In this document: positions 62,543-63,319 of the stretch, piece by piece | Position numbering within the stretch: the first letter of the stretch is position 1 | Layout of the letters: every line of letters starts with the position of its first letter | The notes under the pieces: model-generated | Database searches by the model: none | What the model was told of the DNA's origin: nothing | Seen by the model: only the letters and a program-made list of their open reading frames with translations | Position numbers and translations under genes: made by a program | Source: a virus | Taxonomy: Duplodnaviria; Caudoviricetes | IMG/VR virus record: IMGVR_UViG_3300032212_000003 | Span: 1-64,000 of that record | Length of the DNA stretch: 64,000 bases | Direction: 5' to 3' (one strand)

Positions 62543-62784
62543 TATTCCTCTATGTTTTTAGGTATATCTTCTTTAAGTCTATACAATTGCCAGTTGTTAA
62601 TTCCTACCAAAAGTCCTTTATAGTTATCTTTGGCTTCTTTCTTGATTATTTCTCTTACTTCTTCTGCTATTGCAATTGAAGTATCCATTTCGTTTAGTCT
62701 TACTTTATTACATACGCAAGTATTTTTAGGCGCTGCTTTTCTTGCCGCTATTCTTTTTTCTCTGTAACCTTTTGGAAATGGCAT
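62542..62784 (-). CDS. hypothetical protein
   Basis: 80 aa, AGGAG RBS. Confidence 0.6.
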   Translation of the reverse strand: MPFPKGYREKRIAARKAAPKNTCVCNKVRLNEMDTSIAIAEEVREIIKKEAKDNYKGLLVGINNWQLYRLKEDIPKNIEE

Positions 62785-62801
62785 TAAATTCTCCTTAAAT
62801 A

Positions 62802-62817
62802 TTCGGACAAGTCCGAA
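62802..62817. promoter_or_regulatory. start-associated palindrome TTCGGAC-AA-GTCCGAA
   Basis: Identical copy, 18 nt upstream of the start at 62784 and immediately 3' of the tRNA-like RNA. Confidence 0.75.
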
Positions 62818-62820
62818 AGA

Positions 62821-62951
62821 TAATTAGTACCGGGTGCTGGATTTGAACCAGCGACCTTCTCCTTAATAGGGAGACGCTCTTATGACAGTGCATTGTCATC
62901 TTCCACAATATGCACATTGCTTCGACCCCTGAGCTAACCCGGTACTAATTA
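62821..62951 (-). ncRNA. tRNA-like RNA (anticodon AUU) with 44-nt D-loop insertion and extended acceptor helix
   Basis: ACCGGGT/ACCCGGT acceptor, GCTC/GAGC D stem, TCTCC-CTATTAA-GGAGA anticodon arm, GCTGG-TTCAAAT-CCAGC T arm. Insert at 62881-62924. 3' end is ACTA, not CCA. Confidence 0.75.
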
Positions 62952-63161
62952 CCCTTATAAAATAGATGAGAAGGAAATAAGGCAGAGTGAAAATTTTCCC
63001 TTCTCATCTTTAGCTATGACGATGCGTCTGTGCATCAAACATTACAATTAGTCCATAGTTTATATTCTCCTGCTTATTACGTACTTTAATTTGTGTATGA
63101 AGGTGACGTAAATTAACCCGCTTCTATTCCCGCTATTTAGCGGGAGGGCCTTGCTAAAAAA

Positions 63162-63237
63162 TGGTGGACCCGGAGTGACTCGAACACTCACCTTCCGATT
63201 ATGAGTCGGATGCTCTAACCAACTGAGCTACAGGTCC
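63162..63237 (-). tRNA. tRNA-Ile2(CAU) (alternative: elongator Met)
   Basis: Complete 76-nt cloverleaf with encoded CCA; loop CTCATAA; C4-G69 and C5-G68 match TilS determinants. Confidence 0.85.
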
Positions 63238-63242
63238 TTATA

Positions 63243-63319
63243 TGGTGCCCTCGGCAGGAGTCGAACCTGCAACCACCGGAGTAGAAATCCGGTGCTCTAT
63301 CCAGTTGAGCTACGAAGGC
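63243..63319 (-). tRNA. tRNA-Arg(UCU)
   Basis: Complete 77-nt cloverleaf with CCA; loop TTTCTAC; A20 identity element. Confidence 0.95.

What the first reader, a model, noticed from the sequence alone, without database searches (positions are those of the whole stretch)
62821..62951. tRNA-like RNA with a kissing-loop D-loop insert, AUU anticodon and a sealed 15-bp acceptor helix
Seen (minus strand): all four tRNA arms pair perfectly. A 44-nt insert (62881-62924) sits between T20 and A21; removing it restores a normal AGGGGTA D-loop. The insert can form two hairpins, CAAT-GTGCAT-ATTG and ATGACA-ATGCAC-TGTCAT, whose 6-nt loops are exact reverse complements (a kissing loop or an alternative long hairpin). 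The anticodon is AUU, one change from Lys UUU or Asn GUU, with a Lys-type A73. CCA is replaced by CTA, and the flanks (TAATTAGT/ACTAATTA) extend the acceptor stem to 15 bp. Known: A34 anticodons are rare in bacteria apart from Arg ACG; bacterial tRNA introns are group I in the anticodon loop; phage tRNA variants counter anticodon nucleases such as PrrC, RloC and PARIS AriB, several of which cut tRNA-Lys. Inference: intact pairing argues against decay. It may be an unchargeable tRNA mimic (decoy or scaffold), or a precursor needing novel processing. Standard tRNA scanners would probably miss it.
Basis: partly seen in the sequence, partly recalled or inferred. Interest (0 to 1): 0.82.

Follow-up and report, generated by a model that had tools for sequence, protein, structure and literature searches.

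The report
Sealed tRNA-like RNA with D-loop module
Two related uncultured phages keep a tRNA-shaped RNA gene with a folded 44-46-base module in its D-loop and its amino-acid-accepting end closed inside a 20-base-pair helix; it is a conserved working RNA of a design I found described nowhere, but its job is not known.

Summary
On the minus strand (62956-62816) lies a complete tRNA cloverleaf with anticodon ATT. A 44-nt insert follows G18-G19-N20, no CCA is encoded, and the closing helix is 20 bp, not 15.

One related phage genome (early proteins 28-74% identical) carries the same element. Across eight helices, 45 comparable pairs all stay paired and 16 changed on both sides. These include both insert hairpins, the 6-bp loop-loop pairing and the pair formed by the discriminator. 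This excludes a pseudogene or a chance fold.

The relative has no other tRNA gene. The discriminator differs (A versus U) and always pairs with base -1. The anticodon and discriminator match no bacterial identity set.

My best reading (about 0.4) is a non-charged tRNA mimic cut out of the early transcript. It would compete for a host factor that reads Asn/Lys-type anticodon loops. The main rival (about 0.33) is a real AAU-reading tRNA with unusual maturation.

The two-hairpin architecture was found only in these two phages. Inserts at the same D-loop site occur in a few other phage and mobile-element tRNA genes. I found no published description. Within this scan, the same stretch was noted once in an overlapping window, and not on other DNA.

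The parts
62816..62956 (-). Whole element: tRNA-shaped RNA with its 20-bp closing helix
   Evidence: It is conserved in the related phage G001.
62944..62956 (-). 5' strand of the 13-bp extension of the acceptor helix (leader)
   Evidence: It pairs with 62816-62828. Two pairs are G-U in this phage, so the helix works only in the minus-strand RNA. Pairs -1:73 and -9:81 changed on both sides in G001 (and the sequences).
62937..62943 (-). Acceptor stem, 5' strand
   Evidence: It forms 7 bp with 62829-62835. Three pairs changed on both sides in G001.
62925..62936 (-). U8-A9, the D stem 5' strand (GCTC) and the first part of the D loop with G18-G19
   Evidence: The D stem is invariant in G001.
62881..62924 (-). 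44-nt D-loop insert, made of linker, hairpin 1, linker, hairpin 2
   Evidence: G001 has 46 nt at the same site, with a different sequence and the same architecture.
62905..62920 (-). Hairpin 1: 5-bp stem with the 6-nt loop GTGCAT (62915-62910)
   Evidence: Three pairs changed on both sides in G001. It is part of the minimum-energy fold in G001.
62882..62899 (-). Hairpin 2: 6-bp stem with the 6-nt loop ATGCAC (62893-62888)
   Evidence: Four pairs changed on both sides in G001. RNAalifold predicts it on its own.
62858..62880 (-). A21, the D stem 3' strand, G26 and the anticodon arm; loop CTATTAA with anticodon ATT at 62867-62865
   Evidence: The loop is identical in G001, and two stem pairs changed on both sides.
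62836..62857 (-). Variable loop (5 nt) and the T arm
62829..62835 (-). Acceptor stem, 3' strand
62816..62828 (-). Discriminator (62828, paired with base -1), CTA in place of CCA, and the rest of the 3' strand of the extension (trailer)
   Evidence: The discriminator is A here and U in G001, with a compensating change at -1.

Best explanation
This is a conserved, functional RNA derived from a tRNA but no longer used as an ordinary one.

Shown:
- It keeps the full tRNA core and a canonical anticodon loop reading A-U-U.
- Its D-loop carries a selected two-hairpin module whose loops pair with each other.
- Its acceptor end is buried, discriminator included, in a 20-bp leader-trailer helix with no CCA.

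Inferred:
- It is transcribed at the end of the early tRNA operon.
- It is cut out at the long duplex, which is RNase III-sized.
- It stays uncharged.
- It acts as a stable tRNA look-alike that occupies a host factor reading Asn/Lys-type anticodon loops or the tRNA elbow. That factor could be an anticodon nuclease or a tRNA-modifying enzyme, and A34 would make the RNA a poor substrate.
- The D-loop module either stiffens the RNA or joins two copies through loop-loop pairing.
For: Selection on structure:
- All 45 comparable pairs stay paired between the two phages: 26 unchanged, 3 changed on one side, 16 changed on both sides, none broken.
- On the tool's own count, 34 nested pairs are 100% paired and 10 changed on both sides. 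Slid controls gave 0-1.
- 24 of 28 unpaired tRNA-body positions are identical, and the anticodon loop is 7 of 7.
- Neighbouring proteins matched between the two phages are only 28-74% identical.

Against ordinary charging:
- The discriminator is A in one phage and U in the other, and always pairs with base -1.
- The closing helix is 20 bp in both phages.
- CTA stands in place of CCA, while the two neighbouring tRNA genes both encode CCA.
- The bacterial Asn identity set is the three anticodon bases (GUU in tRNA-Asn) plus G73 (PMC9976931, section 30). The element has A34 and A73 or U73.

A core role:
- The relative G001 has no other tRNA gene yet keeps this element.
- AAT is only 52% of Asn codons in G001, so codon supply does not explain why the element is kept.

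The loop sequences differ between the phages while staying complementary. They therefore recognise each other, not a shared outside target.
Against: - There are no expression, end-mapping or charging data.
- The family has only two members.
- The anticodon loop has everything a decoding tRNA needs (C32, U33, A37, A38).
- AAT is a top-10 codon in this phage (31 per 1000, 64% of Asn). The other two phage tRNAs also match its favoured A/T-rich codons ATA and AGA. This fits plain codon supply.
- Ordinary cloverleaf tRNAs with anticodon ATT, G73 and an encoded CCA exist in other phages (L176 and L180), so ATT can be a working anticodon.
- T4 shows that CCA-less phage tRNAs can be matured by host enzymes (recalled knowledge).
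- No partner protein or targeted defence system was identified.
Confidence: 0.4

Rival explanations
1. It is a real AAU-decoding tRNA with unusual maturation. The long duplex is cut by RNase III or melts. RNase P and 3' trimming then expose the acceptor end, and the host CCA-adding enzyme completes it. The D-loop module is either kept as an expansion or removed. A34 gives Watson-Crick reading of the phage's preferred Asn codon, or resistance to nucleases that need G/Q34.
For: - The core and anticodon loop are fully canonical.
- ARAGORN calls an ordinary tRNA(att) once the insert is removed.
- AAT is 64% of Asn codons. The other two phage tRNAs match ATA (58% of Ile) and AGA (45% of Arg).
- Ordinary ATT tRNAs with CCA exist in other phages.
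- Colicin E5 cleavage depends on the wobble modification (PMC10264068).
- Insert-bearing Lys and CTA tRNA genes elsewhere encode CCA and standard discriminators.
Against: - The discriminator is not conserved and is held in a covarying pair with -1. That is unfavourable for RNase P site choice (recalled knowledge).
- No identity set is met (PMC9976931).
- No CCA is encoded, unlike the neighbouring tRNA genes.
- Neither phage has RtcB. The RNA_ligase family gave nothing in G000 and only one sub-threshold hit (15.8 bits against a 27-bit cut-off) in G001. A ligase would be needed to reseal a spliced D-loop.
- A 44-nt domain beside the elbow has no precedent in a translating tRNA.
- G001 keeps the element with only a 52% AAT share and no other tRNA.
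Confidence: 0.33
2. It is mainly an RNA-processing or stability element. The 20-bp duplex capped by a compact tRNA fold ends the early tRNA transcription unit. It directs RNase III or RNase P cleavage, which separates the tRNAs from the downstream mRNA and protects the new ends.
For: - In both phages it lies immediately before the intergenic GGAC/GTCC palindrome and the next gene's ribosome-binding site.
- The 3' strand of the helix overlaps the conserved left flank of that motif.
- The duplex is of RNase III length.
Against: - A processing stem needs neither a perfectly conserved anticodon loop nor the full set of tRNA tertiary nucleotides nor a covarying D-loop module.
- About 18 other gene junctions in this genome carry the palindrome without any tRNA-like element.
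Confidence: 0.1
3. It is a self-associating RNA.
For: - Loop complementarity is conserved while the loop sequences change.
- All six loop bases are used.
- The hairpins are joined by only 5-6 nt and anchored at adjacent D-loop positions. A coaxial intramolecular kissing helix is therefore sterically difficult (inference).
Against: - There is no direct evidence.
- A long-hairpin alternative fold using the same pairing is close in energy (-8.9 against -7.1 kcal/mol in this phage), so a two-state switch explains the same data.
- The phage has an ordinary large terminase.
Confidence: 0.08
4. It is a decaying tRNA gene hit by a small insertion, or a chance fold.
For: - Standard scanners do not call it.
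- The anticodon is unusual.
Against: - There are 16 two-sided compensatory changes and no broken pair against a homologue whose early proteins have diverged to 28-74% identity.
- The fold has a z-score of -6.5.
- Shuffle test: 10 of 200,000.
Confidence: 0.02

Closest known systems
Ordinary bacterial and phage elongator tRNA (Rfam RF00005)
   Same: - Stems of 7, 4, 5 and 5 bp.
- The tertiary nucleotides U8, A14, G18-G19, A21, G26, the 15:48 pair, the T-loop, U33 and A37.
- It lies next to two ordinary phage tRNA genes.
   Different: - A 44-nt structured insert in the D-loop.
- The discriminator is paired inside a 20-bp helix.
- No CCA is encoded.
- A34 sits in a split codon box.
- No identity set is matched.
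Archaeal non-canonical tRNA introns at D-loop positions (bulge-helix-bulge; e.g. PMC3241643; Nanoarchaeota example L200 found here)
   Same: An insert of a few dozen nucleotides at the same D-loop site. Its removal restores a standard tRNA.
   Different: - There is no bulge-helix-bulge motif at the junctions.
- The phage's cultured relatives infect Vibrio and Pseudomonas, which lack the splicing endonuclease.
- The insert has its own covarying two-hairpin fold.
'Enigmatic' tRNA introns of Lak megaphages (Devoto et al. 2019, PMC6784885)
   Same: Phage tRNA genes interrupted by short, conserved inserts that are not group I introns and whose processing is unknown.
   Different: - The Lak inserts were called with tRNAscan's eukaryote settings, which place introns in the anticodon loop (recalled knowledge). 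Here the insert is in the D-loop.
- Lak tRNAs are not reported with sealed acceptor ends.
Phage T4 species 1 and 2 stable RNAs (rnaC and rnaD; L215)
   Same: Oversized stable RNAs encoded in a phage tRNA cluster. rnaC has a tRNA-type T arm and paired ends. Their function is still unknown.
   Different: - They have no recognisable anticodon arm or D arm.
- There is no sequence similarity.
- They have no D-loop module.
Bacterial Y RNA YrlA, whose module mimics tRNA (recalled knowledge)
   Same: A non-charged tRNA mimic with a closed acceptor end and a long terminal stem.
   Different: - In YrlA the long stem replaces the anticodon arm. Here it extends the acceptor stem and the anticodon arm is intact.
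- No Rfam family other than tRNA matched with any credibility; the only other two hits had E above 6.
   Same: Two loops in one phage RNA whose mutual complementarity is kept while their sequences change.
   Different: - pRNA is not tRNA-shaped.
- It works on a packaging motor in small protein-primed phages.
- Intermolecular pairing is not shown here.
Phage tRNAs that escape or neutralise anticodon nucleases (PMC10264068; Retron and PARIS work, PMC11555353)
   Same: A phage-encoded tRNA-type RNA with a changed anticodon loop relative to the host Asn/Lys type.
   Different: Those are chargeable, ordinary cloverleaf tRNAs that replace the cleaved host tRNA. This one looks unchargeable.

Membership tests
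Elongator tRNA (RF00005) | Four-arm cloverleaf with standard stem lengths | tested here: met
   All stems are perfectly paired in both phages.
Elongator tRNA (RF00005) | Conserved tertiary-interaction nucleotides (U8, A14, G18-G19, A21, the 15:48 pair, G26, T-loop, U33) | tested here: met
   Read directly. They are identical in both phages.
Elongator tRNA (RF00005) | D-loop of ordinary length, and a full-length match to the family model | tested here: not met
   The D-loop is 51 nt. Rfam gives only a local 31.1-bit match to model positions 10-63. Default ARAGORN gives no call.
Elongator tRNA (RF00005) | Unpaired discriminator followed by CCA, either encoded or addable after trimming | tested here: not met
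   The discriminator is paired with -1 in both phages, CTA follows it, and the helix is 20 bp. Whether processing frees the end cannot be tested here.
Elongator tRNA (RF00005) | Aminoacylation and use on the ribosome | not testable with these tools
   Needs acid-gel and in vivo assays.
Bacterial tRNA-Asn | Identity set of anticodon G34-U35-U36 plus G73 (PMC9976931, section 30) | tested here: not met
   The element has A34. The discriminator is A in G000 and U in G001.
Bacterial tRNA-Lys | U35 and A73 (PMC9976931, Lysine identity); anticodon UUU or CUU (general knowledge) | tested here: not met
   U35 is present, but position 34 is A and position 73 is U in G001.
Archaeal bulge-helix-bulge tRNA intron | Two 3-nt bulges separated by a 4-bp helix at the two junctions | tested here: not met
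   The junctions at 62925/62924 and 62881/62880 lie in unpaired linkers next to two separate hairpins.
Group I intron or known small self-cleaving ribozymes | Match to a curated covariance model | tested here: not met
   Scanning 62600-63150 at E up to 10 gave only tRNA and two chance-level hits.
YrlA / Y RNA | Match to the family model; long stem in place of the anticodon arm | tested here: not met
   The scan listed no YrlA or Y RNA hit, and the anticodon arm is intact.
RNase III processing stem | About two turns of uninterrupted double-stranded RNA | tested here: met
   A 20-bp helix is present in both phages. Cleavage itself is not testable here.
   There are 6 pairs, and 3 changed on both sides.
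   Needs native gels or scattering.

The most novel reading that the evidence does not exclude
This would be a new class of phage counter-measure RNA. It would be an unchargeable, nuclease-proof tRNA look-alike whose D-loop carries a covarying kissing-loop module that joins copies together. It would trap a host anticodon-directed enzyme, either a defence nuclease or a tRNA-modification enzyme, during early infection. It would also be the first natural bacterial-world tRNA fold with a structured domain grafted into the D-loop.
Probability: 0.22. Interest if true: 0.88.

Novelty: new variant of a known kind. Interest (0 to 1): 0.7.

Why it matters
tRNA-shaped RNAs that do something other than decode are rare. 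When understood, as with tmRNA, Y RNA modules and viral tRNA-like ends, they have been instructive.

Here a full tRNA core is kept under clear selection together with two features that normal tRNAs never have. One is a folded module grafted beside the elbow. The other is an acceptor end locked in a long duplex.

If it is a decoy, it adds an RNA-only strategy to the phage arsenal against tRNA-directed immunity. If it is a working tRNA, it shows that the D-loop tolerates a 44-nt domain and that A34 can be used in a split codon box, and it implies an undescribed maturation route.

The search also showed that tRNA genes with inserts at this D-loop site, and whole arrays of permuted tRNA-like units, sit unannotated in phage and mobile-element DNA because standard scanners skip them.

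Tried and rejected
- ARAGORN's intron mode places a 25-nt 'intron' and uses part of the insert as an anticodon arm. I rejected this. The fold has a weak anticodon stem (a mismatch and two G-U pairs), and the covariation supports the D-loop reading.
- Searches for more family members:
  - An exact 3'-half pattern found nothing.
  - Architecture patterns in viral contigs found only G001.
  - The metagenome scan returned G001 again plus one analogue, L106.
  - The ATT-specific pattern found nothing in 185,579 prokaryote genomes.
  - The neighbouring 103-aa protein has 13 relatives. The seven contexts I fetched have no tRNA-like element, and two further contexts returned gene maps without DNA.
  - Primase and DUF7227 searches found only G001. 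The protein library added a third, partial relative (L223) that lacks the element.
  - The lineage's palindrome motif found only G001.
  - The cultured-phage library has no match beyond the tRNA 3' half.
- Cultured distant relatives (SHOU24, Lana, PS14A.1, UAntarctica) carry only ordinary tRNAs or none.
- Neither phage has RtcB. The RNA_ligase family gave nothing in G000 and one sub-threshold hit in G001.
- No sigma-70 promoter or intrinsic terminator stands out around the element.
- The 40-codon ORF at 62795-62917 starts inside the insert. The G001 insert region has no ATG, so this reading frame's start is not conserved. I rejected it.
- A literature search with seven queries found no description of D-loop inserts in bacterial or phage tRNAs.
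One unit was folded by reference instead.

Full report
**Observation.** The window is part of a complete 75.6-kb uncultured phage genome with direct terminal repeats (G000). On the minus strand, 62951 to 62821 reads as a tRNA cloverleaf:
- Acceptor stem: 62943-62937 with 62835-62829.
- D stem: 62934-62931 with 62879-62876.
- Anticodon stem: 62874-62870 with 62862-62858, around the loop CTATTAA (anticodon ATT, 62867-62865).
- A 5-nt variable loop and the T arm: 62852-62836.

All the nucleotides that build the tRNA core are in place: U8, A14, G18-G19, A21, G26, the 15:48 pair and the T-loop. Between G18-G19-N20 and A21 sit 44 extra bases (62924-62881). They form two hairpins whose 6-nt loops, GTGCAT and ATGCAC, are exact complements. 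The discriminator (62828) is followed by CTA, not CCA.

Default ARAGORN does not call the gene. Rfam's tRNA model gives only a local 31.1-bit match. With the insert cut out in silico, ARAGORN calls a plain tRNA(att). The 72-nt body then aligns end to end with ordinary phage tRNAs at 75-81% identity.

The fold is far more stable than shuffles, with a z-score of -6.5. Two hairpins with fully complementary 6-nt loops arose in only 10 of 200,000 shuffles of the insert.

There is one correction. The closing helix is 20 bp, not 15: 62956-62937 pairs with 62835-62816. Two of its pairs are G-U, which would be C-A mismatches on the other strand. It is therefore a helix of the minus-strand RNA.

**A homologue with compensatory changes.** A primase search found one related phage, a 78,952-bp IMG/VR contig (G001). 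The two genomes are syntenic in the early region, and the matched proteins are 28-74% identical. G001 carries the same element upstream of the same 103-aa gene.

In a hand structural alignment, 45 pairs in eight helices can be compared. Of these, 26 are unchanged, 3 changed on one side, 16 changed on both sides and none is broken.

| Helix | Pairs changed on both sides |
|---|---|
| Acceptor stem | 3 |
| Discriminator : base -1 pair | 1 |
| Anticodon stem | 2 |
| Hairpin 1 | 3 |
| Hairpin 2 | 4 |
| Loop-loop pairing (GTGCAT/ATGCAC becomes GTGAGA/TCTCAC) | 3 |

The counting tool, run on the MAFFT alignment for the nested helices it aligns correctly, gives 34 pairs, 100% paired, with 10 changed on both sides. 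Slid controls gave 0-1. RNAalifold recovers the closing helix, hairpin 2, the anticodon arm and the T arm unaided.

The anticodon loop is identical, and 24 of 28 unpaired tRNA-body positions are identical. The 20-bp closing helix is present in G001 too, with a further two-sided change at -9:81. A pseudogene, a recent insertion scar or a chance fold is excluded.

**Distribution.** I found no further member of this exact family.
- Pattern scans of IMG/VR returned only G001.
- The metagenome scan returned G001 again plus one analogue.
- The ATT-specific architecture is absent from one genome of each of 185,579 prokaryote species.
- A third, partial relative (L223, 64% identity in a DUF7227 protein, syntenic) has no tRNA-like element in the region.
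- More distant homologues of the downstream gene have none either.
- The nearest cultured phages are Vibrio phage SHOU24 and Pseudomonas phages Lana, PMBT3 and UAntarctica, at 30-38% protein identity. The host is therefore probably a gammaproteobacterium. The four of these genomes that I scanned (SHOU24, Lana, PS14A.1, UAntarctica) hold only ordinary tRNAs or none.

**Context.** In G000 the element is the last item of an early-strand unit. The order is two small genes, tRNA-Arg(TCT), a tRNA with anticodon CAT, a 210-nt spacer, then the element. Immediately after it come a GGAC/GTCC palindrome and the ribosome-binding site of the next gene. The same palindrome marks most of the other 18 places where it occurs in this genome, and G001 has 16 copies. 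The 3' strand of the closing helix runs into the conserved left flank of that motif.

Both neighbouring tRNA genes encode CCA; the element does not. G001 has no other tRNA gene at all, so the element is more conserved in the lineage than the true tRNAs.

| Codon share | G000 | G001 |
|---|---|---|
| ATA among Ile codons | 58% | 41% |
| AGA among Arg codons | 45% | 32% |
| AAT among Asn codons | 64% | 52% |

**What it is not.**
- Scanning 62600-63150 against Rfam at E up to 10 gave nothing but tRNA and two chance-level hits. No group I intron, ribozyme or Y RNA model matched.
- The insert junctions lie in unpaired linkers, not in a bulge-helix-bulge motif.
- Neither phage encodes RtcB. The RNA_ligase family gave nothing in G000 and one sub-threshold hit in G001.
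- A 40-codon ORF starts inside the insert, but its start is not conserved in G001.

**How it most likely works.** The structure is shown. The function is inferred.

Four features argue that the acceptor end is not used as in a normal tRNA:
1. The discriminator differs between two close relatives (A versus U), and the change is compensated at -1. Selection therefore acts on the pair, not on the base. In true tRNAs the discriminator is an identity element, and pairing with -1 disturbs RNase P site choice (recalled knowledge).
2. Thirteen more pairs extend the helix. Seven of them are sequence-identical in both phages.
3. CCA is missing although the neighbouring tRNA genes have it.
4. Bacterial Asn identity needs the three anticodon bases (GUU) plus G73, and Lys identity uses U35 and A73 (PMC9976931). 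The element has A34 and A73 or U73.

The acceptor stem itself has changed at 4 of 7 pairs, 3 of them on both sides. The D arm, the elbow and the anticodon loop are nearly frozen. The conserved surfaces are therefore the anticodon loop and the core.

I therefore favour (about 0.4) a non-charged tRNA mimic. It would be cut out of the early transcript at the RNase III-sized duplex. It would then compete for a host factor that reads Asn/Lys-type anticodon loops, with A34 making it a poor substrate.

The main rival (about 0.33) is a genuine AAU-reading tRNA:
- The loop is fully canonical.
- AAT is a top-10 codon.
- The phage's other two tRNAs also match its favoured A/T-rich codons.
- Normal cloverleaf ATT tRNAs with G73 and CCA exist in other phages (L176 and L180).
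- Colicin E5-type nucleases depend on the wobble modification that A34 would abolish (PMC10264068).

Against that rival, G001 keeps the element with a weak AAT bias and no other tRNA.

**The D-loop module.** Both hairpin stems and the loop-loop pairing covary, so all three pairings are selected. The loop sequences differ between the phages. They therefore recognise each other and not a common outside target.

All six loop bases pair. The hairpins are joined by only 5-6 nt, and both are tied to adjacent D-loop positions. A coaxial intramolecular kissing helix looks sterically hard (inference). The alternatives are a two-state switch or pairing between molecules, as in phi29 pRNA. In the switch, a long hairpin using the same 6 bp competes with the two hairpins: -8.9 against -7.1 kcal/mol in G000, while the two-hairpin fold is the minimum in G001. 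The sequence cannot decide between these.

**Wider picture.** The scans showed that inserts at this very D-loop site are not unique. In each case below except the Nanoarchaeota gene, which I did not test, ARAGORN calls a normal tRNA once the insert is removed.
- A second ATT tRNA gene with an unrelated 55-nt insert (L106).
- A CTA-anticodon tRNA with a 53-nt insert in a 174-kb phage (L014).
- Lys tRNA genes with 34-52-nt inserts and an encoded CCA in Solirubrobacterales genomes. In one genome (G002) the gene sits inside a 2.57-kb repeat next to a DDE transposase; the other genome (G003) has a single copy beside a weak IS1-like hit. Each genome also has a normal tRNA-Lys elsewhere.
- A Nanoarchaeota tRNA-Asn, which is the known archaeal kind of intron (L200).

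The inserts share position, not sequence or fold. The two-hairpin module and the sealed end are specific to G000 and G001. Of 13 IMG/VR loci with a CTATTAA loop and the same variable loop, 11 have a non-standard architecture.

**Literature.** Seven full-text searches found no description of D-loop inserts in bacterial or phage tRNAs. The closest published items are:
- The 'enigmatic' tRNA introns of Lak megaphages (PMC6784885).
- Archaeal non-canonical introns (PMC3241643).
- The T4 stable RNAs rnaC and rnaD, oversized RNAs in a phage tRNA cluster whose function is still unknown.

**Verdict.** This is a real, conserved RNA of a new design within the tRNA-like kind. The structural claims are secure. 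The function is open between a mimic and an oddly matured tRNA. Interest is 0.7.

Noticed in passing
window 62801-62820, plus about 18 further sites on the minus strand of G000 (e.g. near 64146, 61277, 58927, 57015): A GGAC-N2/3-GTCC palindrome with conserved flanks sits after stop codons and 10-20 nt before the next AGGAG ribosome-binding site at most of its sites. There are 19 copies in G000 and 16 in G001. The first copy lies at the start of the early region with no gene before it, so it may be a promoter or operator rather than a terminator.
   Followed up: partly
window 63162-63237 and 63243-63319: The CAT-anticodon tRNA is probably tRNA-Ile2, because ATA is 58% of Ile codons (36-38 per 1000). 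The tRNA-Arg(TCT) matches AGA, which is 45% of Arg codons. The relative G001 lacks both tRNAs and uses ATA (41%) and AGA (32%) less.
   Followed up: partly
L106:478-612 and L106:612-895: A 1.3-kb metagenome contig has a second ATT-anticodon tRNA gene with an unrelated 55-nt insert at the same D-loop site. It is followed by tRNA-Pro and tRNA-Ala genes that appear to have 7-bp anticodon stems and odd D arms.
   Followed up: partly
L014:2625-2731 (IMG/VR contig of 174,626 bp): A CTA-anticodon (amber-reading) tRNA gene with an encoded CCA carries a 53-nt insert at the same D-loop site, next to tRNA-Leu(TAA). ARAGORN calls it only after the insert is removed.
   Followed up: partly
L192, L194, L196 (= L216, L218, L220) and L212 (= L219); also metagenome loci L057, L091, L117, L134, L113: High-GC tRNA-Lys genes carry 34-52-nt D-loop inserts and an encoded CCA. 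In one Solirubrobacterales genome the gene lies in a 2.57-kb repeat present three times next to a DDE transposase. A normal tRNA-Lys(TTT) exists elsewhere in each genome.
   Followed up: partly
L179, L181, L182, L186 (phage contigs of 25-225 kb): tRNA genes with anticodon ATT, and in L181 also a neighbouring CAT gene, each carry a conserved insert of about 50 nt between the D arm and the anticodon stem. CCA is encoded. This looks like the class noted earlier in this scan as an oversized tRNA-like RNA.
   Followed up: partly
L175:1862-2005; also L177, L178, L183, L184, L185: These are apparently circularly permuted tRNA-like units, in tandem with further units in at least L175. The order is stalk 5' strand, anticodon arm, variable loop, T arm, acceptor hairpin capped by a tetraloop, D arm, stalk 3' strand. 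The stalk has a conserved internal loop. The fold was confirmed for one unit, with a z-score of -5.4. My search for permuted tRNAs in phages found no description.
   Followed up: partly
L200 (Nanoarchaeota MAG), the same sequence as L124 and L150: A tRNA-Asn(GTT) with G73 carries a 36-nt D-loop insert. This is the known archaeal kind of non-canonical intron and serves as a reference case.
   Followed up: no
Many loci among L012-L047, L048-L166 and L189-L214: Most pattern hits were a duplicated 5' fragment of a tRNA (acceptor strand plus D arm) lying 35-65 nt upstream of the intact copy of the same tRNA. These look like integration or cassette scars, not inserts.
   Followed up: no
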